From a phage: DNA of 64,000 nt. The translations under genes and the position numbers were made by a program. The notes beneath the pieces were generated by a model, which made no database searches, was not told the origin of the DNA, and saw only the letters and a list, made by a program, of their open reading frames with translations. Positions 3,888 to 38,022 of the stretch are shown here, in pieces. The stretch is from the NCBI GenBank assembly GCA_019234695.1, contig GCA_019234695.1_3937.1; one strand, 5' to 3'. The first letter of the stretch is position 1. Each line of letters starts with the position of its first letter.

Positions 3888-3914
3888 AAAAGGCTGCTTC
3901 GGCGGCCTTTTTTA
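3888..3914 (+). terminator. intrinsic terminator after rIIB
   Basis: AGGCTGC-TTCG-GCGGCCT followed by TTTTTT. Confidence 0.65.
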
Positions 3915-3943
3915 TTTGTATTTTGTGCAGAGTGCTGTATAAT
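3915..3943 (+). promoter_or_regulatory. promoter-like element
   Basis: TATAAT at 3938-3943 with weak -35; shares TTGTGCAG motif with 8.1 kb repeats. Confidence 0.35.
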
Positions 3944-3974
3944 TGTTGTCACGATAAACTAAACAGGAGAACCA

Positions 3975-4523
3975 ATGAAGAAATTGATTCTAGGTTTGTG
4001 CTTAATGTTTACAGCACACTTATCTTATGCAGTTGACTGCCCAGAGCTATCAATTAGCCAAAAAGTAAACATGTTAAAAGCTTACCAGTATGGTGAGAAT
4101 AACATGGGTAAAGGTTGGGGTATCACTCTAGCTGCTATAGCCTTACAAGAGTCAGAGTTAGGTCTGAAGGTAGAGAATAAAAAGACACATGATTATGGTA
4201 TTTTCCAGAATCACTTGAAGACTGTTGTAAAGCGTAACAACATTAGTCCTAATGTGGCTAAAAAGAAACTCTTAAAAGACTTTGACTATGCTGCAAAGGA
4301 AACGCACAAAGAACTTGAGTTTTGGACAAAGGTGCATGGTCAGCCAAAGTCAAAGAAGACTTTACAAAAAGTTTTAGCATCATATAATGCTGGGTATTCG
4401 TACAGAATCCCTAAAGCTAAGAAATACTCTCAAGATGTCTATAACAATATGAAAGTTATCGCTCAATGTGAATTTGCAACAAACATTTCTAAGGTAAACC
4501 ATGAAAAAATTAAGAAAGTCTGA
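3975..4523 (+). CDS. secreted lytic transglycosylase-like protein (SLT domain)
   Basis: N-terminal signal peptide MKKLILGLCLMFTAHLSYA; SLT-type motifs ALQESELG, YGIFQ, SYNAG. Confidence 0.55.
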   Translation: MKKLILGLCLMFTAHLSYAVDCPELSISQKVNMLKAYQYGENNMGKGWGITLAAIALQESELGLKVENKKTHDYGIFQNHLKTVVKRNNISPNVAKKKLLKDFDYAAKETHKELEFWTKVHGQPKSKKTLQKVLASYNAGYSYRIPKAKKYSQDVYNNMKVIAQCEFATNISKVNHEKIKKV

Positions 4524-5196
4524 TGAAGTCCTGTGCCACGCTTATGACTTGCATCCTCATGAGTTAGGTCTTGATTCCTGTGTATGGACTCCAGAACAGT
4601 GCAGAGATTTTGAAGACACTGCAAGAGAGGTTGTATGTTCACTTGAAGAGTTCCACACATCAGAACCCATTGTGAACGTTGTGGACAAAGAGACTGGACA
4701 AACTATAGGTGTAAGGCGTGATAGTTTAGTAATAGTCAATAAAGACCTTGTAGAAAAAGGTAACCTCATCTTAGCAGATATTGATGGTGTTCTTACAAAT
4801 TTTAATCACGAAGATTGCTCAACGGAATTGACTGATGGGTCATTCTCACAGTACACTAATCTTCTTGATTCTGTAAGAGCAAAACCAACATATGTTTTCA
4901 ACATTATTGATGCAATTGCAAATCATGCAGCAGTTGGACTCTTGACAGCAAGAGGTGAATCTCAGAGAGTACCTACTGAGATGTTTTTAAGGCATTACAT
5001 AGAGCATGATTACATGCTTTTTATGCGTGGTTTTGGAACTAACTCTATAAGTGCAGAAAGTTTGAAAGTGAGGATGATTCAGTCTTGCATTCTTCCTTAC
5101 TTTAATATAGTATGCTTTATAGAAGATACAGAGAAGAATGTTCAGAAGGTAAACAGAATCCTTCCACACATTAAAACCATGTTAGTTAAACATTGA
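4501..5196 (+). CDS. HAD-like hydrolase/phosphatase candidate
   Basis: ORF track; DxDG motif LADIDGVLTNF typical of HAD motif I; start overlaps preceding gene, exact start uncertain. Confidence 0.35.
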   Translation: MKKLRKSDEVLCHAYDLHPHELGLDSCVWTPEQCRDFEDTAREVVCSLEEFHTSEPIVNVVDKETGQTIGVRRDSLVIVNKDLVEKGNLILADIDGVLTNFNHEDCSTELTDGSFSQYTNLLDSVRAKPTYVFNIIDAIANHAAVGLLTARGESQRVPTEMFLRHYIEHDYMLFMRGFGTNSISAESLKVRMIQSCILPYFNIVCFIEDTEKNVQKVNRILPHIKTMLVKH

Positions 5197-7032: not shown

Positions 7033-7225
7033 CTTCTGCAAAGACTGTTCTATAGAAATGTTTGGACGTGATACAGGTGACTTAAAAGGTCTTATCACTG
7101 AGGATGACTTTAAAGCTGGCTACGCAATGCCAGTAATCTGTGAAGGTTGTGGGTGCATCTGGGTAGACCACGAAGGACAGCGTGTAAAACCTTCAGAAGA
7201 TAAAGAATCTTGGGAGAGATGTTAA
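7025..7225 (+). CDS. small Cys-rich zinc-binding protein
   Basis: internal ATG at 7025 (MADFCKDCS...) after AGAGG RBS, trimmed from ORF 6935..7225; CxxC and CEGCGC motifs. Confidence 0.4.
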   Translation: MADFCKDCSIEMFGRDTGDLKGLITEDDFKAGYAMPVICEGCGCIWVDHEGQRVKPSEDKESWERC

Positions 7226-8005
7226 ATGGGTATTGTAAAAGTTGTGAAAGGTAACTTACTAGCTGCCTTCAAAAACACAGACATTGAGTTAATTGCTCAT
7301 GGTTGCAACTGCCGTAACCTCATGGGTGCCGGAATCGCTCAAAAAATTGCTAAGATTTTCCCAAAAGCTGAAGAAGCTGACCGGAAATTCCATAAAAAGT
7401 TTGGCTACAGCGCTCATGATATCGGATACCAGATGGTTGGTGAGGTGTCACATGCTCGAACGGAGTATGGTTACATTTTTAACCTGTATACACAGTTAGA
7501 TGTTGGGAAGTGTGCATCATACCGATACTTAGTGGAGTCACTAGAAAAACTCCGTAAATTTTGCTGGATGCACAACATTCGTAAGATTGGTTTACCCATG
7601 ATTGGTGCAGGTATCGGTGGTTTAGACGCACAAGCTGTGAAAAGCCTCATTAATAGCGTTATGTACAACGTTGATGTGTACCTATACGTCTATGATGAAG
7701 CAATGGCAACTGTAGTTACCCCTAAGTATGCCACCTCAGCACCACAATTCTATGATGGTGTCGTGCTAAGTGACGGTAAGTCTAACCATGTTACCCTCTA
7801 TCAGCTTGTTGATGGTAAGGTCGAGGCTAGTTACCCTCTGGTTAGTGAGATGGGTATGTGTAATAGTGAAATGTTCTCAATTGACCCGTTTGGTAGATAC
7901 GAAGGGGTGTTCTTTGATAACTACCCAGCAGCATACATCTACACAACAAATCAGGATGAAGTTCACTACTTGCTGTATTCTAAAAAGTTCAAATTCATAA
8001 ACTGA
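7226..8005 (+). CDS. macro-domain protein, TARG1/OARD1-like ADP-ribose hydrolase fold, with ~100 aa C-terminal extension
   Basis: IAHGCNCRNLMGAGIAQKIAKIFP and IGLPMIGAGIGGLDAQAVKSLI resemble TARG1 motifs LAHCISEDCRMGAGIA and MPRIGCGLDRL (recalled from memory). Confidence 0.65.
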   Translation: MGIVKVVKGNLLAAFKNTDIELIAHGCNCRNLMGAGIAQKIAKIFPKAEEADRKFHKKFGYSAHDIGYQMVGEVSHARTEYGYIFNLYTQLDVGKCASYRYLVESLEKLRKFCWMHNIRKIGLPMIGAGIGGLDAQAVKSLINSVMYNVDVYLYVYDEAMATVVTPKYATSAPQFYDGVVLSDGKSNHVTLYQLVDGKVEASYPLVSEMGMCNSEMFSIDPFGRYEGVFFDNYPAAYIYTTNQDEVHYLLYSKKFKFIN

Positions 8006-8777: not shown

Positions 8778-9161
8778 ATGGCATATCGTGCACCTAAATT
8801 CATCAACAAAGACAATTTCCGCAATGCACTGGAAAAATCACTTGATGAGAATTTTAAAGGTAACGTTATTGTTGTTCACTCGTTTAATTTTAAGTATGAT
8901 ATTAACGGGAATAAAATCAACCATTACACGGCGACAATGCTAGATGGTACTCTTTCAAGTGAAAAAGCCATTTTACATGCACTTGCTGGACGTGGTAAAA
9001 ACCTGATAAGATGCGATAAGAGACGTTATCAGGGTGGCGCATATGGTTACGATGATGCTGTTTATCATCTTGAAAATATGGGCTATCAAGTAGAAAAAGA
9101 TGGAGTGTCTCAAATAATCGGTAGTGATGGTTACGTAACTATCTTCAAAATTAACAAATAA
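8778..9161 (+). CDS. hypothetical protein
   Basis: ORF track; conserved leader AAACTAGGAGATTCAAAAATG. Confidence 0.55.
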   Translation: MAYRAPKFINKDNFRNALEKSLDENFKGNVIVVHSFNFKYDINGNKINHYTATMLDGTLSSEKAILHALAGRGKNLIRCDKRRYQGGAYGYDDAVYHLENMGYQVEKDGVSQIIGSDGYVTIFKINK

Positions 9162-9246
9162 AGTACTTTACAAGGGGCTTATAGTTCGATAAAGTAAGCC
9201 CCAGATAAAGAACTTTACCACTCAATCCTAAATTGGAGATTCAAAA
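9160..9246 (+). repeat. cassette A copy 2
   Basis: same element; stem GGGGCTTA / TAAGCCCC. Confidence 0.7.
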
Positions 9247-9480
9247 ATGGCTACTATCAAAAACGTTGTAATTCCTGTAAAAACTCGTGATGACGCTCGC
9301 ATCATGGCGAAAAAGTTAGGCGGGAAAGTGGTTGACAACGGAAAACAATCTGCTGTAAGATGGGGTGTGAGGGCTGATAAACAGTTGAAGTTAAAAAATT
9401 CACCAATAAATCTTTTTACATGTGTAAACACTATCGGAAAGACAAATGTATACACGATTTACAAGGGGCTTAAAAGTTGA
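9247..9480 (+). CDS. hypothetical small protein
   Basis: ORF track; conserved leader; 3-prime end runs into cassette A hairpin. Confidence 0.5.
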   Translation: MATIKNVVIPVKTRDDARIMAKKLGGKVVDNGKQSAVRWGVRADKQLKLKNSPINLFTCVNTIGKTNVYTIYKGLKS

Positions 9481-23981: not shown

Positions 23982-25397
23982 ATGAGCGAATTATTTAAAC
24001 ATGCGAACCTTCATGCAGGTCGAACTGAAAATGGTGCTGTAAACCATACTTCATCAATGTCTGCTCTTGTAGACTTTTACAAAGCTGCTGGTTCAAGCCG
24101 TAGCAACGTAGAAATCTTACCAGACCTGTTCTACAAAGCTTTGCGTGAGGATGTTGATGTTGCAGTTCGTATTTTGCTTCATATGCGAGATGTACGAGAA
24201 GGTATGGGTGAGCGTAAAGCCTTCAGAACTGTTTTGCTTCAAGCAATTGAAGATAAAGTTTTAGAGCCTACACAGGTTCTTCGCATTATGGATAAGATTG
24301 CAGAACTTGGTCGTTTTGATGACTTCAAAATCTTCGTGGGTACTTGTTTCGAGACAGATGCCTTCAAACATTTAGAAGCAGCATTACTAGACCCTGCAAC
24401 AGCAGGTTTGGCGGCTAAGTGGTTACCACGAGTCAAACCACGTCATAAGCAGTTTGTAAAACGTTTCTGCAAGTTTGCCAACTTGAGTGAGAAAGAGTAC
24501 CGCACACTGTTGTCTGCACTATCTGATACAGTTGAGCAAAAAATCTCTGCTAATGAGTTTGGTAAGATTGACTACAGTAAGATTCCTTCACTTGCTGCTG
24601 CACGTTACCAAAAACTGTTTAACCGTAAAGATGGAGAGCGTTACAAAGCTTACATCGAGTCCTTATCAAAAGGTGAGACTAAGATTAGCGCTGGTGCTGT
24701 TTACCCATACGATGTGATTAAATCCGTCAAGCATGGTAATGCAGATGTTGCTAATGAGCAGTGGAAAGCACTACCAAACTGGATGGCAGAAGGTGAAAAC
24801 ATCTTGTGTATGTCTGATGTATCAAGTTCAATGTCTTGGGTGAATTTTGGCTCCATTACTGCTCTGGATATTGGTGTATCACTTGCCTTGTATGTAGCAG
24901 AACGCAATACAGGTTGCTTTAAGAATGAGTTGATGGTTTATTCAACAAACCCTCACTTCATCGAACTGAGTGGTGATTTACGAAACCGTCATCGTCAGGT
25001 GATGCGACACGTTGAATATGGCTCAACTAACTTACAAGCAGCTTTTGACCGCATTCTTGAGACAGGCAAAAGAAACAACTTGACTCAGAAAGATATGCCA
25101 AGTAAGCTTATCATCTTCTCCGATATGGAGTTTAATCAGGTTGATGGGGCTAACGGTCGTACAAACTTTGAAGCAATTCAGAGTAAGTACAAAAAAGCTG
25201 GATATGAGATGCCACAACTGGTATTCTGGTACTTAGCAAACCGTAATGGTACTTGCGAAGTATCTGTTAAGGATAACGGTGTAGCAATGGTATCAGGGTT
25301 CTCTCCAGCCACTTTAAAAGCTCTGCTTGGTGGTGAGAAGTTTGACCCAATCAGTGTAATGCTCAAAGCAGTAATGATTGACCGTTATATCTGGTAA
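23982..25397 (+). CDS. Ro60-like protein (helical N-terminal domain plus vWA/MIDAS domain)
   Basis: 471 aa; SDVSSSM (DxSxS MIDAS), LIIFSDMEFN and GFSPATLKAL align by eye with human Ro60 vWA segments DVSASM, FIVFTDNETF, GFDTGAL (recalled). Confidence 0.5.
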   Translation: MSELFKHANLHAGRTENGAVNHTSSMSALVDFYKAAGSSRSNVEILPDLFYKALREDVDVAVRILLHMRDVREGMGERKAFRTVLLQAIEDKVLEPTQVLRIMDKIAELGRFDDFKIFVGTCFETDAFKHLEAALLDPATAGLAAKWLPRVKPRHKQFVKRFCKFANLSEKEYRTLLSALSDTVEQKISANEFGKIDYSKIPSLAAARYQKLFNRKDGERYKAYIESLSKGETKISAGAVYPYDVIKSVKHGNADVANEQWKALPNWMAEGENILCMSDVSSSMSWVNFGSITALDIGVSLALYVAERNTGCFKNELMVYSTNPHFIELSGDLRNRHRQVMRHVEYGSTNLQAAFDRILETGKRNNLTQKDMPSKLIIFSDMEFNQVDGANGRTNFEAIQSKYKKAGYEMPQLVFWYLANRNGTCEVSVKDNGVAMVSGFSPATLKALLGGEKFDPISVMLKAVMIDRYIW

Positions 25398-25415
25398 AAA
25401 GTTTTAAAAAGGGTA

Positions 25416-25444
25416 TTGACAATGTGTTTAATACCCTTTAATAT
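25416..25444 (+). promoter_or_regulatory. sigma70-like promoter upstream of tRNA cluster
   Basis: TTGACA-17-TAATAT; -35 flanked by inverted repeat GGGTATT / AATACCC. Confidence 0.55.
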
Positions 25445-25506
25445 GTTCTACATAGAAACGAAATGAGAGCTTTTCTAAGATACTGAAAAATATTTTAAAA
25501 AAGTTC

Positions 25507-25536
25507 TTGACAACCACTAAAAAATAATGTTAAAGT
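25507..25536 (+). promoter_or_regulatory. second promoter upstream of tRNA cluster
   Basis: TTGACA-18-TAAAGT with inverted repeat AACCACT / AGTGGTT; ~25 nt upstream of first tRNA. Confidence 0.4.
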
Positions 25537-25560
25537 GGTTACATAGAGTTTGAAAAGTTT

Positions 25561-25637
25561 ATCTCTGTTTAGCTCAGCTTGGTAGAGCGTTCCGTTTGGG
25601 GCGGTAAGGCCGGAGGTTCAAGTCCTCCAACAGAGAC
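25561..25637 (+). tRNA. tRNA-Pro (anticodon TGG)
   Basis: manual cloverleaf; acceptor CTCTGTT/AACAGAG, T-arm GGAGG-TTCAAGT-CCTCC, CCA encoded. Confidence 0.65.
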
Positions 25638-25644
25638 CAAATTA

Positions 25645-25722
25645 ATGTTCCAGTGGACAAAATGGTAAAGTCACCACTCTTTCAAAGTGGATATTTGAGG
25701 GTTCAAATCCCTTCTGGAACGC
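25645..25722 (+). tRNA. tRNA-Glu (TTC)
   Basis: manual fold; anticodon arm CCACT-CTTTCAA-AGTGG; T-loop TTCAAAT. Confidence 0.7.
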
Positions 25723-25728
25723 CAGTTT

Positions 25729-25802
25729 TGACAGAAGACCAATTACAGCAAACTTAATCTTATTCATCTGAAGGTAAATCGGACAAAGAAGAGATTTGGT
25801 CT
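25729..25802 (+). ncRNA. structured hairpin RNA E1 (Y RNA-like family)
   Basis: 5-prime ACAGAAGACCAATTACAGCAA pairs with 3-prime TTGGTCTGG; between tRNA-Glu and tRNA-Met. Confidence 0.45.
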
Positions 25803-25813
25803 GGTCATTAAGA

Positions 25814-25890
25814 ATTGCGGGTATAGAGAAAGGGCGTCTCACATGTCTCATTAGCATGGTATCGGCAGGTTCGACTCCTGCACCCGCCTC
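25814..25890 (+). tRNA. tRNA-Met (CAT), atypical
   Basis: anticodon arm CATGT-CTCATTA-GCATG; 1-72 mismatch and 3-nt connector before D-stem. Confidence 0.5.
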
Positions 25891-25895
25891 CAAAT

Positions 25896-25960
25896 TTACA
25901 GAAGACCGTTTACAGCAATATTTATTAAATTTTTAGCGGAAAAATTGAAAGATACGGTCT
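25896..25960 (+). ncRNA. structured hairpin RNA E2 (Y RNA-like family)
   Basis: 5-prime ACAGAAGACCGTTTACAGCAA pairs with 3-prime ACGGTCTGG; compensatory change relative to E1/E3. Confidence 0.45.
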
Positions 25961-25973
25961 GGTAATACTAAAC

Positions 25974-26050
25974 ATGGTTAGGAAGCACATAAGGTATGTG
26001 CGGTCGCCTGTTAAGCGAATGGCACAGGGTTCGAATCCCTGACTAACCGC
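25974..26050 (+). tRNA. tRNA-Asn (GTT)
   Basis: anticodon loop CTGTTAA; D-stem GCAC/GTGC; T-arm CAGGG-TTCGAAT-CCCTG. Confidence 0.7.
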
Positions 26051-26119
26051 CAAATTTAGGAGAGAAGCGATTGCTCACCGATTTGTAAGGTTCAAGTCCT
26101 TAGCCTGAATAGAAATCAA

Positions 26120-26207
26120 ATGTGTCGTTATCCCGTAGATGGTAGCGGTGGGGACTGTAAATCCCTTGTCATTGAGACTCGGTAGGTTCGACTCCTACAC
26201 GGCACAC
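26120..26207 (+). tRNA. tRNA-Tyr (GTA), long variable arm
   Basis: 88 nt; anticodon loop CTGTAAA; T-arm GTAGG-TTCGACT-CCTAC. Confidence 0.7.
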
Positions 26208-26213
26208 CAAATA

Positions 26214-26291
26214 AAGGTTATGTAGTTTAATCTGGTTAAAATACTCCCCTGTCACGGGAGATGATGAGGGTTCAAATCCCTTCATAACCGC
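26214..26291 (+). tRNA. tRNA-Asp (GTC)
   Basis: perfect acceptor GGTTATG/CATAACC; anticodon arm CTCCC-CTGTCAC-GGGAG. Confidence 0.8.
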
Positions 26292-26352
26292 CAATTTTGA
26301 GAGGGCTATTTAGCCCCTCCCTTAAAGAGTTCTTACGAGTATTCTTTAAAGG

Positions 26353-26426
26353 AGCAGAAGACCAAATACAGCAAGCATGTATGAAATTTCAAACCAATTC
26401 AATTTTGAAAATTTAAAACTTGGTCT
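26353..26426 (+). ncRNA. structured hairpin RNA E3 (Y RNA-like family)
   Basis: 5-prime CAGAAGACCAAATACAGCAA pairs with 3-prime TTGGTCTGG. Confidence 0.45.
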
Positions 26427-26438
26427 GGCTCAACAAAT

Positions 26439-26571
26439 TTACAGAAGACCGTTTACAGCAAAACTTAAACAATCTATTTCTCCGGTAAAGAAAAGGCGAG
26501 GGTTCGATTCCTTCACTCGGCAGATGTCGAGTTGGTGTAATGGTAGCACTTAAGATGATAAACAACGGTCT
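26439..26571 (+). ncRNA. candidate Y RNA (YrlA-like) with permuted tRNA-like module
   Basis: terminal stem AGACCGTT / AACGGTCT; internal order T-arm (GAGGG-TTCGATT-CCTTC), ACTCGGC, 4-nt loop, GTCGAGT, D-arm (GTGTAATGGTAGCAC). Confidence 0.5.
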
Positions 26572-26573
26572 GG

Positions 26574-26716
26574 TAATTATCTTTGTAGATAAGTTATTAA
26601 GCTTACCTGTGAGTATGCGACCACAAAGGGTGAATGGGTAAATTCTAGATTTAAACCCAAAAAGGCACATCGCTACAGACCTTAAGCAAGTCTGGGTAGC
26701 TTATCTACAAAGATAA
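26574..26716 (+). ncRNA. long hairpin element with 18-bp terminal inverted repeat
   Basis: ATTATCTTTGTAGATAAG (26574-26591) is the exact reverse complement of CTTATCTACAAAGATAAT (26699-26716); ~107 nt interior with sub-hairpins. Confidence 0.4.
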
Positions 26717-26720
26717 TTTA

Positions 26721-26796
26721 ATGGAAGTGTAGCAGAATGGTGATGCGGCAGACTTTTAATCTGACAGGCGATGGGTTCGAATCCCTCCACTTCTAC
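26721..26796 (+). tRNA. tRNA-Lys (TTT), weak T-stem
   Basis: anticodon loop CTTTTAA; acceptor GGAAGTG/CACTTCT; T-stem has two mismatches. Confidence 0.55.
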
Positions 26797-26800
26797 CAAT

Positions 26801-26877
26801 ATGGTTCAGTCGCAGATAAGGTAATGCAAGGGTCTCATAAGCCCTATGAATGTGGGTTCGATTCCCATCTGAACCTC
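26801..26877 (+). tRNA. tRNA-Met (CAT)
   Basis: perfect acceptor GGTTCAG/CTGAACC; anticodon arm AGGGT-CTCATAA-GCCCT. Confidence 0.7.
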
Positions 26878-26878
26878 C

Positions 26879-26954
26879 AAGCTGGTATAGTTAAGAAGGT
26901 TATAACACTCCCCTGATAAGGGAACATCGGTGGTTCGATTCCACCTACCAGTAC
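26879..26954 (+). tRNA. tRNA-Ile (GAT)
   Basis: anticodon loop CTGATAA; T-arm GGTGG-TTCGATT-CCACC. Confidence 0.75.
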
Positions 26955-26969
26955 CAATTTCAATAAAGT

Positions 26970-26998
26970 TGTTGACATTGAGATGTGACTACTTTATA
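26970..26998 (+). promoter_or_regulatory. internal sigma70-like promoter within tRNA cluster
   Basis: TTGACA-17-TATAGT after tRNA-Ile; precedes ~200 nt tRNA-free structured segment. Confidence 0.55.
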
Positions 26999-27200
26999 GT
27001 AACCTTAGTTTTCGTTGCGTAGCGTCTATTTTGCAAATTTAAAATAAATGCAAACGACAATGTTTTTCTGGCAGTAGCTTGATAGGCTAAACACCAGTGA
27101 GGTCTTCCAATCCCTCATCAAAGAATTTGGCGTACTCGCCCACGGTATGATTAATAAGGTGGGCATCTTTAAGGGCTTTCTAAGAGAGTCTTTAAAGATA

Positions 27201-27277
27201 ATGCACCCTTAGTTCAATTGGATAGAGCAACGGTCTTCTAAATCGTTAGTTACAGGTTCGAATCCTGTAGGGTGTAC
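27201..27277 (+). tRNA. tRNA-Arg (TCT)
   Basis: anticodon arm ACGGT-CTTCTAA-ATCGT; T-arm ACAGG-TTCGAAT-CCTGT. Confidence 0.8.
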
Positions 27278-36915: not shown

Positions 36916-38022
36916 ATGTTGACTAATTCTGAAAAAAGCAGATTTTTCCTTGCTGACCTTACTGGTGAAGTCCAGTCTATCCCAAATACTTATGGGTATA
37001 TTTCCAACTTAGGTCTGTTCCGTTCAGCACCAATCACCCAAACTACTTTCCTTATGGACTTGACTGATTGGGATGTTAGCTTGCTTGATGCGGTAGACCG
37101 CGATAGCCGTAAAGCAGAGACTAGCGCACCTGAGCGTGTTCGTCAAATCAGCTTCCCAATGATGTACTTCAAAGAAGTTGAAAGCATTACTCCTGATGAG
37201 ATTCAGGGTGTACGTCAGCCAGGAACTGCAAACGAACTGACTACTGAAGCTGTAGTACGTGCTAAGAAGCTGATGAAGATTCGTACCAAGTTCGATATTA
37301 CTCGTGAGTTCCTGTTTATGCAAGCTCTGAAGGGTAAAGTTGTTGATGCTCGTGGTACTCTGTATGCTGACCTGTACAAGCAGTTCGACGTTGAGAAGAA
37401 GACTGTTTACTTCGACCTTGACAACCCTAATGCTGACATTGACGCTGCTATTGAAGAACTGCGTATGCACATGGAAGACGAAGCTAAGACTGGCACTGTA
37501 ATCAACGGTGAAGAAATTCACGTAGTTGTTGACCGCTTATTCTTCAGCAAACTGGTTAAACACCCTAAGATTCGTGACGCTTATCTTGCACAGCAGACTC
37601 CGCTGGCTTGGCAACAGATTACTGGTTCTCTGAGAACTGGTGGTACTGACGGCGTTCAGGCTCACATGAACACTTTCTACTACGGTGGTGTTAAGTTTGT
37701 CCAGTACAACGGTAAGTTCAAAGACAAGCGTGGTAAGGTTCACACTCTGGTGAGCATTGATAGTGTAGCAGCAACTGTTGGTGTAGGTCATGCTTTCCCT
37801 AACGTTTCTATGCTGGGTGAAGCTAACAACATCTTCGAAGTGGCATATGGTCCATGCCCTAAGATGGGTTATGCAAATACACTTGGTCAGGAACTGTACG
37901 TATTCGAATACGAAAAAGACCGTGACGAAGGTATTGACTTTGAAGCTCACTCTTACATGCTGCCATACTGCACACGTCCTCAGTTGCTGGTAGACGTTCG
38001 TTCTGACGCTAAACCAGACTAA
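36916..38022 (+). CDS. major capsid protein (lambda gpE-like)
   Basis: 368 aa following decoration gene; strong GGAG-containing RBS region. Confidence 0.6.
   Translation: MLTNSEKSRFFLADLTGEVQSIPNTYGYISNLGLFRSAPITQTTFLMDLTDWDVSLLDAVDRDSRKAETSAPERVRQISFPMMYFKEVESITPDEIQGVRQPGTANELTTEAVVRAKKLMKIRTKFDITREFLFMQALKGKVVDARGTLYADLYKQFDVEKKTVYFDLDNPNADIDAAIEELRMHMEDEAKTGTVINGEEIHVVVDRLFFSKLVKHPKIRDAYLAQQTPLAWQQITGSLRTGGTDGVQAHMNTFYYGGVKFVQYNGKFKDKRGKVHTLVSIDSVAATVGVGHAFPNVSMLGEANNIFEVAYGPCPKMGYANTLGQELYVFEYEKDRDEGIDFEAHSYMLPYCTRPQLLVDVRSDAKPD

What the first reader, a model, noticed from the sequence alone, without database searches (positions are those of the whole stretch)
25729..26571. Four-member hairpin RNA family with compensatory base changes in the closing stem
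E1 (25729-25802), E2 (25896-25960), E3 (26353-26426) and E4 (26439-26571) each begin with (A)CAGAAGACC.. and end with ..GGTCTGG. The helix next to the conserved core covaries: E1 and E3 pair AGACCAA with TTGGTCT, while E2 and E4 pair AGACCGT(T) with (A)ACGGTCT. Compensatory double changes that keep pairing are classic evidence for a selected RNA secondary structure rather than a DNA-level repeat. The 5-prime strand has unpaired A residues giving a bulged helix.
Basis: seen in the sequence. Interest (0 to 1): 0.7.

Follow-up and report, generated by a model that had tools for sequence, protein, structure and literature searches.

The report
Y-RNA-like partners of phage Ro60-like protein
Four small structured RNAs among the tRNA genes of a Felix O1-type phage belong to a widespread, unannotated RNA family that lies beside a phage gene for a Ro60-like ring protein; one copy mimics a tRNA, and all carry the signature of the 'Class I' RNAs of social amoebae.

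The parts
23982..25397 (+). Gene for a 471-aa Ro60-like protein (DUF2828 N-terminal helical domain plus DUF7788 vWA domain with a DVSGSM MIDAS motif). It is the proposed protein partner of E1-E4.
25416..25536 (+). Two sigma-70-like promoters (25416-25444 and 25507-25536) just after the Ro60-like gene. They are the likely start of the transcript that carries tRNA-Pro, tRNA-Glu, E1 and the rest.
   Evidence: Consensus scan scores of 10/12 for each. These are consensus matches only, not a demonstration of promoter activity.
25729..25807 (+). E1, a short-form RNA. Outer helix 25729-25732/25804-25807; loop AGA/G; inner helix 25736-25742/25796-25802; 11-nt motif AAUUACAGCAA at 25741-25751.
   Evidence: CM R1 score 45.2 bits, E 1.5e-6. 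Rfam RF01414 score 19.7 bits over the full model.
25896..25965 (+). E2, a short-form RNA. Inner helix 25903-25909/25954-25960; motif GUUUACAGCAA at 25908-25918.
   Evidence: R1 score 48.6 bits, E 2.6e-7. RF01414 score 20.1 bits.
26352..26431 (+). E3, a short-form RNA. Outer helix GAGC/GCUC; inner helix 26359-26365/26420-26426; motif AAAUACAGCAA at 26364-26374.
   Evidence: R1 score 43.1 bits, E 4.5e-6.
26439..26576 (+). E4, a long-form RNA. It has the same closing module (inner helix 26446-26453/26564-26571; motif at 26451-26461) around a circularly permuted tRNA-like domain.
   Evidence: The MFE fold gives a five-helix junction. The descriptor scan finds it. Rfam tRNA gives a partial match at 26465-26515. 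Pair counts on orthologs support the helices.
26477..26493 (+). E4 variable-arm-like hairpin (UUUCU / AGAAA with a 7-nt loop).
   Evidence: 88% of cells are paired; the hairpin is replaced by a different one in L018 and L019.
26498..26514 (+). E4 T-arm (GAGGG UUCGAUU CCUUC).
   Evidence: 98% of cells paired.
26515..26532 (+). E4 acceptor-like 7-bp stem closed by the loop AGAU (ACUCGGC / GUCGAGU).
   Evidence: 100% of cells are paired across three sequence versions, and 3 pairs show double changes. One version carries GCCA after the 3' strand.
26535..26549 (+). E4 D-arm (GUGU AAUGGUA GCAC).
   Evidence: The arm is invariant, so the pair counts neither support nor contradict it.

Best explanation
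E1-E4 are small non-coding RNAs transcribed with the phage tRNA array from promoters just downstream of the Ro60-like gene. They are presumably released by the host tRNA-processing nucleases, because they lie 3-10 nt from the neighbouring tRNAs. All four share one module: an outer helix, a purine-rich asymmetric internal loop, an inner helix that starts A-G and ends C-U-G, and a single-stranded (U)UACAGCAA. I propose this module is the docking site for the phage's own Ro60-like ring protein (DUF2828+vWA). This would parallel the way Y RNAs dock on Ro60/Rsr through a conserved bulged terminal stem. The variable interior would be the effector end. In E4 it is a tRNA mimic with T-arm, D-arm, a capped acceptor stem and a variable arm, as in bacterial YrlA. 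It could recruit tRNA-recognising enzymes or a nuclease to the complex, or gate the ring. By analogy with Ro60/Y RNA/PNPase complexes and with the rsr-yrlBA-rtcBA operon, the complex would act on structured RNAs (tRNA or rRNA) during infection, in quality control, turnover or repair of RNAs damaged by host defences. Four things are shown here: the RNA structure and its conservation, the strand-specific physical linkage to the gene across very distant phages, joint presence and absence within one phage subfamily, and the Ro60 fold of the protein model. Three things are inferred: the binding itself, the processing, and the biological role.
For: Structure. Both helices covary within the window, in Mooglevirus and in P778. 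In the 37-sequence alignment 98% of cells are paired, 6 of 7 pairs have double changes, and the covariation score is 0.94 against 0.22 in shuffles, with 0 of 500 shuffles reaching it.

Linkage. CM R1 gave 127 matches at E<=0.1 in 1.34 Mb, all on the gene's strand. In 65 distant loci (protein 39-46% identical) there were 62 matches at E<=0.01, spread over 45 loci. Of these, 44 lie within 1 kb of the gene, a zone that makes up 14.6% of the sequence, and many lie within 5-60 nt. Tandem copies abut the gene in Listeria phage LMSP-25, Staphylococcus phage 6ec and Campylobacter phage CJLB-7. Three copies lie just downstream of the gene in mycobacteriophage Faith1, seen by eye; R1 scores on them are weak.

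Controls. The tRNA clusters of T5, T2 and AlexBoehm, and a 14-kb stretch around the SB18 tRNA cluster, gave no match better than 14.7 bits. At whole-genome level, Felixounavirus JohannRWettstein has the gene and 3 matches, while its subfamily relative Kolesnikvirus SB18 has neither.

tRNA-like long forms with the same closing module recur in P778, S13, KVP40 and several metagenomic phages. The Faith1 long form aligns to Rfam YrlA over the whole model. The Listeria neighbourhood includes RtcB. In Listeria phage CKA15 the homologous protein is expressed and found in virions, and very abundant unannotated RNAs map near the tRNAs upstream of it (PMC12282133).
Against: There is no direct evidence of binding or of expression for this phage. 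The Rsr/Ro60-binding motif of known bacterial Y RNAs (GNCGAAN0-1G, or CGAA) is absent from E1-E4. No Rfam Y-RNA model matches E1-E4. The protein does not match Pfam TROVE by sequence. About 30% of the distant DUF2828 loci had no significant short-form match, although several of these have long forms. Thirteen matches lie more than 3 kb from the gene, mostly beside tRNA or tmRNA genes, so linkage to the tRNA module rather than to the protein explains part of the signal. The CM seeds were chosen with a pairing filter, so the percentage paired is partly circular.
Confidence: 0.7

Rival explanations
1. The elements are trans-acting RNAs that work without the Ro60-like protein. They could be base-pairing sRNAs that use the single-stranded UUACAGCAA as a seed, or decoys or sponges for a host factor such as an RNase, PNPase or a tRNA-targeting defence nuclease. 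In that case the adjacency to DUF2828 only reflects a shared 'RNA module' of the genome.
For: The most conserved part is an unpaired 9-mer, as in sRNA seeds. The elements lie in tRNA clusters, and 13 of the distant matches lie more than 3 kb from the gene, mostly next to tRNA or tmRNA genes. E4 mimics a tRNA, which would suit a decoy for anticodon nucleases. Dictyostelium Class I RNA binds an RRM protein directly (PMC7919456).
Against: The same 9-mer is kept in phages of Proteobacteria, Firmicutes, Campylobacter and Actinobacteria. A seed target would therefore have to be universal, and none was identified. Placement within 5-60 nt of the DUF2828 gene on the same strand in many loci, and joint loss in Kolesnikvirus, are not expected without a functional tie. 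The elements are absent from the sampled tRNA clusters of T5, T2 and AlexBoehm, which show no DUF2828 homolog in the stretches fetched.
Confidence: 0.15
2. The elements are cis-acting punctuation of the polycistronic tRNA precursor. They would be processing hairpins for RNase III, RNase E or RNase P, or folding insulators between tRNAs, with no function after excision.
For: They sit 3-10 nt from the flanking tRNAs, are tRNA-sized (70-80 nt), and their ends pair like an acceptor stem.
Against: In Staphylococcus phage 6ec, Listeria LMSP-25 and mycobacteriophage Faith1 they form tandem arrays next to the gene with no tRNA between them. A conserved single-stranded motif and a conserved tRNA-like domain are not needed for punctuation. 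Only 4 of about 25 tRNA junctions in this cluster have them. Other phage tRNA clusters lack them.
Confidence: 0.08
3. The elements are ligands for the host's own Ro60 ortholog (Rsr), that is, phage-encoded YrlA/YrlB mimics that hijack host Rsr.
For: Felix O1-type phages infect Salmonella, which from my own knowledge carries rsr-yrlBA-rtcBA. E4 has the YrlA architecture.
Against: The Rsr-binding motif is absent. The elements are retained unchanged in phages isolated on E. coli K-12, which from my own knowledge lacks rsr. The phage carries its own Ro60-like gene right next to them.
Confidence: 0.04
4. The elements are DNA-level features: decayed tRNA pseudogenes, recombination or homing-endonuclease sites, or miniature inverted repeats.
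For: They are inverted repeats in a region known for homing-endonuclease traffic (insertions split the match in some relatives). E4 contains tRNA-derived sequence.
Against: Strand asymmetry is complete, at 127 to 0. The G.U-type substitutions would be mismatches in DNA. Pairing is maintained by double changes while the loops diverge freely. The conserved motif lies outside the repeat arms.
Confidence: 0.02

Closest known systems
Bacterial and phage Y RNAs, especially YrlA (Rfam RF02553; Chen et al. 2014, PMC4201824) and Yrl1/Yrl2 of Thermus phage phiLo (PMC12135203)
   Same: They are encoded next to a Ro60-fold gene on the same strand, often in several copies. The 5' and 3' ends pair into a stem interrupted by a bulge or internal loop next to a conserved sequence. 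The design is modular. The long form has the YrlA order: 5' strand, V region, T-arm, capped acceptor-like stem, D-arm, 3' strand. Some copies carry NCCA after the acceptor 3' strand, as in M. smegmatis YrlA, which is cut by RNase P and receives CCA. The Faith1 long form aligns to the YrlA model end to end.
   Different: The conserved motif is (U)UACAGCAA plus AG...CUG, not GNCGAAN0-1G or CGAA. No match reaches Rfam's YrlA threshold: 21.7 bits against a cut-off of 69 in Faith1, and nothing in the window. The partner protein belongs to Pfam DUF2828/DUF7788, not TROVE. Here the RNAs are embedded in a tRNA array.
Dictyostelid Class I RNAs (Rfam RF01414; Aspegren 2004, Avesson 2011, Kjellin 2021, PMC7919456)
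   Same: The hairpins are about 60 nt long. A short terminal stem is conserved in structure but not in sequence. An 11-nt unpaired motif (CCUUACAGCAA in D. discoideum) lies directly after the 5' stem strand. The invariant positions C6, C9, A10 and A11 are also invariant in the phage family. The 5' G of the stem and the 3' C-U-G are conserved (AAG...CUGU in Dictyostelia, A-AG...CUG in phages). The loop is variable and A-rich. Rare long members carry an inserted structured domain.
   Different: Rfam scores stay below the gathering cut-off of 41.5 bits: 19.7 and 20.1 in the window, and up to 28.8 in L050. Phage copies usually have an extra outer helix and an internal loop. The promoter context (DUSE) and the organism differ. 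The known direct binder in Dictyostelium is an RRM protein (Rnp1A), and no Ro60-like partner has been reported. Whether Dictyostelium has a DUF2828 protein could not be tested here.
Small stable RNAs of the phage T4 tRNA cluster (species 1 and 2, rnaC/rnaD). This comparison rests on my own knowledge and was not tested.
   Same: They are non-tRNA stable RNAs cotranscribed with and processed from a phage tRNA precursor, and their function is unknown.
   Different: The T2 tRNA region gave no R1 match. T-even phages show no DUF2828 homolog in the stretch fetched.

Membership tests
Y RNA / YrlA (Rfam RF02553) | Encoded adjacent to a Ro60 (TROVE) ortholog | tested here: inconclusive
Y RNA / YrlA (Rfam RF02553) | Ro60/Rsr-binding motif GNCGAAN0-1G (CGAA) in the 5' strand of the terminal stem | tested here: not met
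   A regular-expression search finds no such motif in E1-E4. The equivalent place holds CAGAAG and UUACAGCAA.
Y RNA / YrlA (Rfam RF02553) | tRNA-like domain in the order V, T-arm, capped acceptor-like stem, D-arm | tested here: met
   Met for E4 only. E1-E3 lack the domain, as the shorter YrlB-type RNAs do.
Y RNA / YrlA (Rfam RF02553) | Score at or above Rfam's gathering threshold (69 bits) | tested here: not met
   There is no YrlA match in the window at E<=10. The homologous long form in Faith1 scores 21.7 bits.
Y RNA / YrlA (Rfam RF02553) | Physical binding to the Ro60 protein | not testable with these tools
   This needs EMSA, RIP or a structure.
Dictyostelid Class I RNA (Rfam RF01414) | Short (about 6 bp) stem joining the 5' and 3' ends, conserved in structure but not in sequence | tested here: met
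   The stem is 7-8 bp and 6 of 7 pairs show double changes. Covariation is also seen among E1-E4.
Dictyostelid Class I RNA (Rfam RF01414) | 11-nt unpaired motif next to the 5' stem strand, with U3, C6, C9, A10 and A11 nearly invariant | tested here: met
   E1 has AAUUACAGCAA, and E2 and E4 have GUUUACAGCAA. E3 has AAAUACAGCAA, with A at position 3. C6, A7, G8, C9, A10 and A11 are invariant in 37 phage sequences.
Dictyostelid Class I RNA (Rfam RF01414) | Conserved termini AAG...CUGU | tested here: inconclusive
   The sequence A-AG...CUG-G/A is present and conserved. In phages it is internal to a longer hairpin, and the real RNA ends are unknown.
Dictyostelid Class I RNA (Rfam RF01414) | Score at or above Rfam's gathering threshold (41.5 bits) | tested here: not met
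   Scores are 19.7 and 20.1 bits in the window, 26.4 in L064 and 28.8 in L050 at E 0.0019. A CM built from 26 D. discoideum sequences placed 10 of its 14 best matches on the phage elements.
Dictyostelid Class I RNA (Rfam RF01414) | DUSE promoter about 60 nt upstream; dictyostelid host | tested here: not met
   This is a phage genome with sigma-70-like promoters.
Ro60 / TROVE protein family (for the neighbouring gene) | HEAT-like helical ring plus a C-terminal vWA domain with a MIDAS motif | tested here: met
Ro60 / TROVE protein family (for the neighbouring gene) | Sequence match to Pfam TROVE or to solved Ro60 chains | tested here: not met
   There is no TROVE hit. phmmer and profile searches of PDB sequences found no Ro60.
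tRNA (for E4) | Continuous cloverleaf with an open acceptor end and an anticodon loop | tested here: not met
   ARAGORN and Rfam call no tRNA there. The order is permuted, the acceptor stem is capped, and the anticodon stem opens into the E stem.

The most novel reading that the evidence does not exclude
The phage RNAs and the Class I RNAs of social amoebae may be one ancient RNA family, whose hallmark (AG-stem, UUACAGCAA, CUG) is the recognition element for DUF2828-type Ro60-like proteins. Pfam describes that protein family as found in eukaryotes and viruses. If so, Class I RNAs are not a dictyostelid invention tied to multicellularity. They would be the Y-RNA equivalents of a second, unrecognised Ro-like ribonucleoprotein shared by phages and eukaryotes, with interchangeable effector inserts (a tRNA mimic in phages). 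The uncharacterised Class I pull-down protein DDB_G0281243, or another amoebal DUF2828 protein, would be the missing partner.
Probability: 0.4. Interest if true: 0.9.

Novelty: new variant of a known kind. Interest (0 to 1): 0.8.

Why it matters
Ro60/Y-RNA particles are known from animals, from some bacteria and from a few phages with TROVE-type proteins. This work links a large second group of phage 'Ro-like' proteins (DUF2828, present in 710 of 50,697 phage records) to a defined candidate RNA ligand for the first time. These phages include widely used or well-studied types such as Felix O1-like, KVP40-like and Listeria P100/A511-like phages. The RNA has a clear sequence and structure signature and includes tRNA-mimicking versions.

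The elements are unannotated in public records, or are overwritten by spurious small ORFs. Recognising them would correct annotations. They may also account for the very abundant unexplained transcripts reported in a Listeria phage.

The finding gives a directly testable system, with one protein, four RNAs and a genetically tractable coliphage. That system can address what Ro-like particles do during infection, whether in tRNA or rRNA surveillance, in repair, or in countering tRNA-cleaving defences.

The match to Class I RNAs would, if homologous, overturn the view that those RNAs are unique to Dictyostelia. It would also suggest their long-sought function.

Tried and rejected
1. Known RNA families. 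Rfam at gathering and at permissive thresholds gave nothing on E1-E4 apart from sub-threshold Class I hits and a partial tRNA hit. By eye I considered hammerhead, hairpin, twister and HDV-like (theta) ribozymes. No model supports any of them and the conserved cores are absent.

2. E elements pairing across tRNAs. The 3' arm of one element could in principle pair with the 5' arm of the next. I rejected this because the covarying bases match only within an element (E1 AA/UU against E2 GU/AC).

3. A simple descriptor test. This measured the best contiguous helix against a shuffled downstream sequence. It gave only moderate enrichment, with helices of at least 7 bp in 47% against 22%, because many motif occurrences lie in coding sequence. 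I replaced it with the covariance-model search.

4. A Dictyostelium DUF2828 protein. The AFDB Foldseek library was unavailable. DDB_G0281243 appears in no other held paper and in none of the supplements. Peptide-motif searches of the truncated proteome supplements found only unrelated proteins. Avesson 2011 is not held.

5. The phage list of Chen et al. 2014. Its supplement is not held, so I cannot say whether some tRNA-like long forms, for example in mycobacteriophages, were already counted as YrlA.

6. A reverse census, from RNA motif to the presence of the gene, across IMG/VR. I judged it unworkable with exact-pattern scans: I expected thousands of chance matches and a cap on the loci returned.

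7. The roughly 250-nt long forms. They gave no Rfam identity and no significant folding z-score.
Full report
**What the window is.** The region 25400-27000 is 98.6% identical to Felixounavirus genomes (Felix O1-like myoviruses of Escherichia and Salmonella), and 238 phage records cover at least 80% of it. ARAGORN finds 26 tRNA genes on the + strand between 25563 and 30774. The four elements lie in the first kilobase of this array: E1 between tRNA-Glu and tRNA-Met, E2 between tRNA-Met and tRNA-Asn, and E3 and E4 between tRNA-Asp and tRNA-Lys.

- CAGAAGACC occurs exactly at 25732, 25899, 26355 and 26442, and GGTCTGG at 25798, 25956, 26422 and 26567.
- The longer pattern AGAAGACCNNNTACAGCAA matches all four sites without mismatch. 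With up to 3 mismatches allowed there are 6 matches against about 1 expected from shuffles.
- RNAfold gives the same closing architecture for every copy. It consists of a 4-bp outer helix, an internal loop of AGA opposite G, a 7-8-bp inner helix AGACCNN/NNGGUCU, and then an unpaired (U)UACAGCAA.
- The outer helix is UGAC/GUCA in E1, UUAC/GUAA in E2 and E4, and GAGC/GCUC in E3.
- Both helices covary among the four copies.
- With the outer helix included, the elements span 25729-25807, 25896-25965, 26352-26431 and 26439-26576.

**E4 contains a permuted tRNA-like domain.** Inside the same closing module, the MFE fold of E4 shows a five-helix junction. Its parts are:
- a short helix CUUAA/UUAAG that continues the stem;
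- a hairpin in the position of a long variable arm (26477-26493);
- a canonical T-arm, GAGGG-UUCGAUU-CCUUC (26498-26514);
- a 7-bp acceptor-like stem capped by AGAU (26515-26532);
- a D-arm, GUGU-AAUGGUA-GCAC (26535-26549).

Rfam's tRNA model aligns to part of this region, but no tRNA is called. Ten distinct E4 orthologs from Felixounavirus and Mooglevirus keep every helix. The acceptor-like stem is 100% paired in three different sequence versions: ACUCGGC/GUCGAGU, ACACGUU/GGCGUGU and ACCCUUC/GAAGGGU. Three of its pairs show double changes. The third version is followed by GCCA, like a real tRNA 3' end. The order V region, T-arm, capped acceptor stem, D-arm between paired 5' and 3' ends is the architecture described for bacterial YrlA Y RNAs (PMC4201824).

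**The neighbouring gene has a Ro60 fold.**
- The ORF 23982-25397 ends 166 nt before the first tRNA. It matches Pfam DUF2828 and DUF7788 and PHROG 850 'RNA-binding protein'.
- It has no sequence match to solved structures.
- A model built from 34 diverse homologs (pLDDT 87.6, pTM 0.88) matches Ro60 over both domains. The 11 best Foldseek PDB hits are all Ro60, Rsr or phage phiLo Ro60, with TM up to 0.67.
- tblastn finds homologs in 710 phage records. These include KVP40-like vibriophages, Campylobacter, Listeria, Staphylococcus, Enterococcus and Bacillus phages, and mycobacteriophages, where the gene is annotated 'Ro-like RNA binding protein'.

**The RNA family follows the gene.**
- I fetched 80 IMG/VR loci that encode relatives of the protein at 39-99% identity. 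A simple descriptor, a helix followed by U(W)WCAGCAA and closed downstream, showed a recurring hairpin.
- Its form is (A)A-AGR-NNNN-(N)UWCAGCAA ... NNNN-YCU-G. It often carries an extra outer helix and an A-rich/G(A) internal loop, as in the window.
- In a 37-sequence alignment from the window and 25 loci, the invariant positions are the G of the second stem pair and its partner C, U4, and C6-A11 of the motif. The G after the stem is nearly invariant. The other stem pairs vary freely while staying paired.
- The covariance model R1 found 127 matches at E<=0.1 in 1.34 Mb, all on the strand of the gene.
- In the 65 distant loci there were 62 matches at E<=0.01, spread over 45 loci. Of these, 44 lie within 1 kb of the gene, a zone that is 14.6% of the sequence searched. 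Many lie within 5-60 nt of the gene.
- With filters off, the model found tandem copies directly beside the gene in Listeria phage LMSP-25, Staphylococcus phage 6ec and Campylobacter phage CJLB-7.
- In mycobacteriophage Faith1, the 370-nt gap after the gene holds three copies by eye: GGACGC-UAACAGCAA...GCGUCC-AG, a tRNA-like long form, and GGUCAC-UAACAGCAA...GUGACC-AG. R1 scores there are weak.

**Controls.**
- The tRNA clusters of T5, T2 and the Vequintavirus AlexBoehm, and a 14-kb stretch around the SB18 tRNA cluster, gave nothing above 14.7 bits.
- Within the same subfamily, the whole genome of Felixounavirus JohannRWettstein has the gene (97% identity) and three matches of 38-49.7 bits, all in the tRNA cluster.
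- The whole genome of Kolesnikvirus SB18 has a syntenic tRNA cluster. It has neither the gene (best tblastn E 0.23) nor any match (best 18.5 bits).

**Long forms elsewhere.** The same closing module encloses permuted tRNA-like domains in Yersinia phage P778, Cronobacter phage S13, KVP40 and several metagenomic phages. In several of these the acceptor 3' strand is followed by NCCA and a linker. This recalls M. smegmatis YrlA, which is cut by RNase P and receives CCA. The Faith1 long form aligns to Rfam YrlA across the whole model, but at only 21.7 bits against a threshold of 69. A further form of about 250 nt has a conserved core of unknown nature.

**Interpretation.**
- The evidence supports small RNAs that are cotranscribed with the tRNAs. 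Two sigma-70-like promoters lie at 25416-25444 and 25507-25536.
- The shared module is the candidate docking site of the adjacent Ro60-like protein, and the interior is a variable effector end. This is the logic of Y RNAs.
- The function is inferred. By analogy with Ro60/Y RNA/PNPase machines and with the bacterial rsr-yrl-rtcBA operon, the particle would act on structured RNAs during infection.
- Context supports this reading. RtcB and an HD phosphohydrolase lie next to the gene in the Listeria phage. Many loci carry tRNAs and tmRNA nearby. Felixounaviruses encode a polynucleotide kinase.
- In Listeria phage CKA15 the homologous protein is found in virions, and very abundant unannotated transcripts map near the tRNAs within 2 kb upstream. 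The authors only speculate that these are Y RNAs (PMC12282133).

**Why I do not file the elements as YrlA members.** The Rsr-binding motif GNCGAAN0-1G is absent. No Rfam Y-RNA model reaches threshold. The protein is not a TROVE member by sequence.

**An unexpected resemblance to Class I RNAs.**
- The only non-tRNA Rfam family that aligns end to end with E1 and E2 is RF01414, the Class I RNAs of Dictyostelium, at 19.7 and 20.1 bits. Related phage elements score 26.4 bits and 28.8 bits (E 0.0019 after correction for all 4227 families in that 421-nt stretch).
- The published definition of Class I RNAs matches the phage family feature by feature. It comprises a length of about 60 nt, a 6-bp terminal stem conserved in structure only, an unpaired 11-nt motif next to the 5' stem strand with U3, C6, C9, A10 and A11 nearly invariant, a fully conserved 5' G, the ends AAG...CUGU, and a variable loop (PMC7919456).
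- The curated D. discoideum sequences read GUUGAC-CUUACAGCAA...GUCAAC-UG.
- A model built only from 26 of those sequences was searched over 1.13 Mb. It returned 14 matches at E<=1, and 10 of them lie exactly on phage elements defined by R1, all on the gene's strand. Those elements occupy well under 1% of the search space.
- Individually the scores are weak and below Rfam's cut-off, so I do not claim membership.
- Pfam describes DUF2828 as a eukaryotic and viral family; this is from my own knowledge, and papers in the library mention it in plants.
- One of the four proteins pulled down with a Class I RNA, DDB_G0281243, has no known function. I could not determine whether it, or any dictyostelid protein, is a DUF2828 member.

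**Novelty and caveats.**
- Phage Ro60 homologs with Y-like RNAs are known: mycobacteriophages, CcrColossus, Bacillus phage G and phiLo.
- New here are the RNA family itself (a different motif, short and tRNA-like forms, embedded in tRNA arrays), its systematic linkage to the DUF2828 branch of Ro-like proteins, and the link to Class I RNAs.
- I could not read the phage table of Chen et al. 2014, so some long forms may already have been listed there as YrlA.
- The elements are unannotated in curated Felixounavirus records. The stretch holding E3, E4 and the hairpin after E4 is instead covered by two small minus-strand ORFs.
- Binding, processing and function remain untested.

Noticed in passing
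window 26577-26722 (+): A structured RNA of about 150 nt lies directly after E4 and before tRNA-Lys. It has a long closing stem (CUUUGUAGAUAAG.../...CUUAUCUACAAAG) and an internal hairpin. Against Mooglevirus-type orthologs, 10 of 43 predicted pairs keep pairing through double changes. It has no Rfam identity. Public records place a small minus-strand ORF over it.
   Followed up: partly
window 26960-27202 (+): A strong sigma-70-like promoter (26972-27000, 11/12) is followed by a conserved non-coding stretch of about 190 nt inside the tRNA cluster. The stretch is also recognisable in Kolesnikvirus SB18 (L003 about 9090-9300). It gives weak tmRNA-type Rfam hits (RF04321 29.2 bits, E 0.004; RF00023 15.7 bits). 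It may be another small RNA.
   Followed up: no
window 26053-26121 (+): The gap between tRNA-Asn and tRNA-Tyr holds a degenerate tRNA-like remnant (a T-arm-like AAGGUUCAAGUCCUU) that is not called by ARAGORN or Rfam.
   Followed up: no
L006 (Cronobacter phage S13) 6896-7016 and 7026-7138: Two unpermuted tRNA-like genes lie just downstream of the DUF2828 gene and are annotated as odd 121-nt and 113-nt tRNAs. Each has a roughly 45-nt insert in place of the anticodon arm. The inserts share ACGCAAACUGAYAAGUUUGUAUUCAGCA, so the UAUUCAGCA hallmark sits inside an otherwise normal tRNA frame. A permuted long form follows at 7143-7299.
   Followed up: partly
L040 4790-5036, L050 9518-9766, L071 6115-6366, L029 9464-9724; variants in L023 (KVP40) 2348-2573 and 4589-4850, L061, L079, L086: A long form of about 250 nt has the same closing module and a conserved internal core (for example ...CAACUUCUCAUUGU.GGUGAAGAA...AGUAUAGUAGGCCGUCGAAG...AAAAAGAGAUAUAGCUGCCGAGCUGAAUAAUACGAAC). 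It has no Rfam match and no significant folding z-score, and its nature is unknown.
   Followed up: partly
L003 (Kolesnikvirus SB18) 7350-7525: The Kolesnikvirus lacks the Ro60-like gene and the E family. At a comparable place in its tRNA cluster it has a different 170-nt hairpin whose 5' strand reads GGUCUGG and whose 3' strand reads CCAGAGCC, with a bulged G. It is unexplained.
   Followed up: no
L088 (Listeria phage LMSP-25) 3351-9455: The DUF2828 gene there sits in an RNA-metabolism neighbourhood. Upstream lie tRNAs and a 'ribosome associated inhibitor A' gene. Downstream lie an HD phosphohydrolase, RtcB ('tRNA splicing ligase') and a 'tRNA amidotransferase'. This resembles the bacterial rsr-yrl-rtcBA arrangement. 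In the related phage CKA15 the protein was detected in purified virions (PMC12282133).
   Followed up: partly
Supplement 19 of PMC7919456 (D. discoideum DdR-66, DdR-67): The rare long Class I RNAs carry an insert (GGUGUAGAAUAGGUGGGAGAC...GUGAAAUACCACC). From memory it looks like a segment of large-subunit rRNA. If so, it would parallel the tRNA-mimicking insert of phage E4. This was not checked.
   Followed up: no
L095 (JohannRWettstein) 37748-37900 and 37912-38022; L089 (CJLB-7) 3903-4040: Public annotations place small hypothetical ORFs over these RNA elements. In the BASEL phage they are on the opposite strand, across the stretch that holds E3, E4 and the hairpin after E4. In the Campylobacter phage the ORF lies over the element just upstream of the DUF2828 gene. 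These are probably spurious gene calls.
   Followed up: partly
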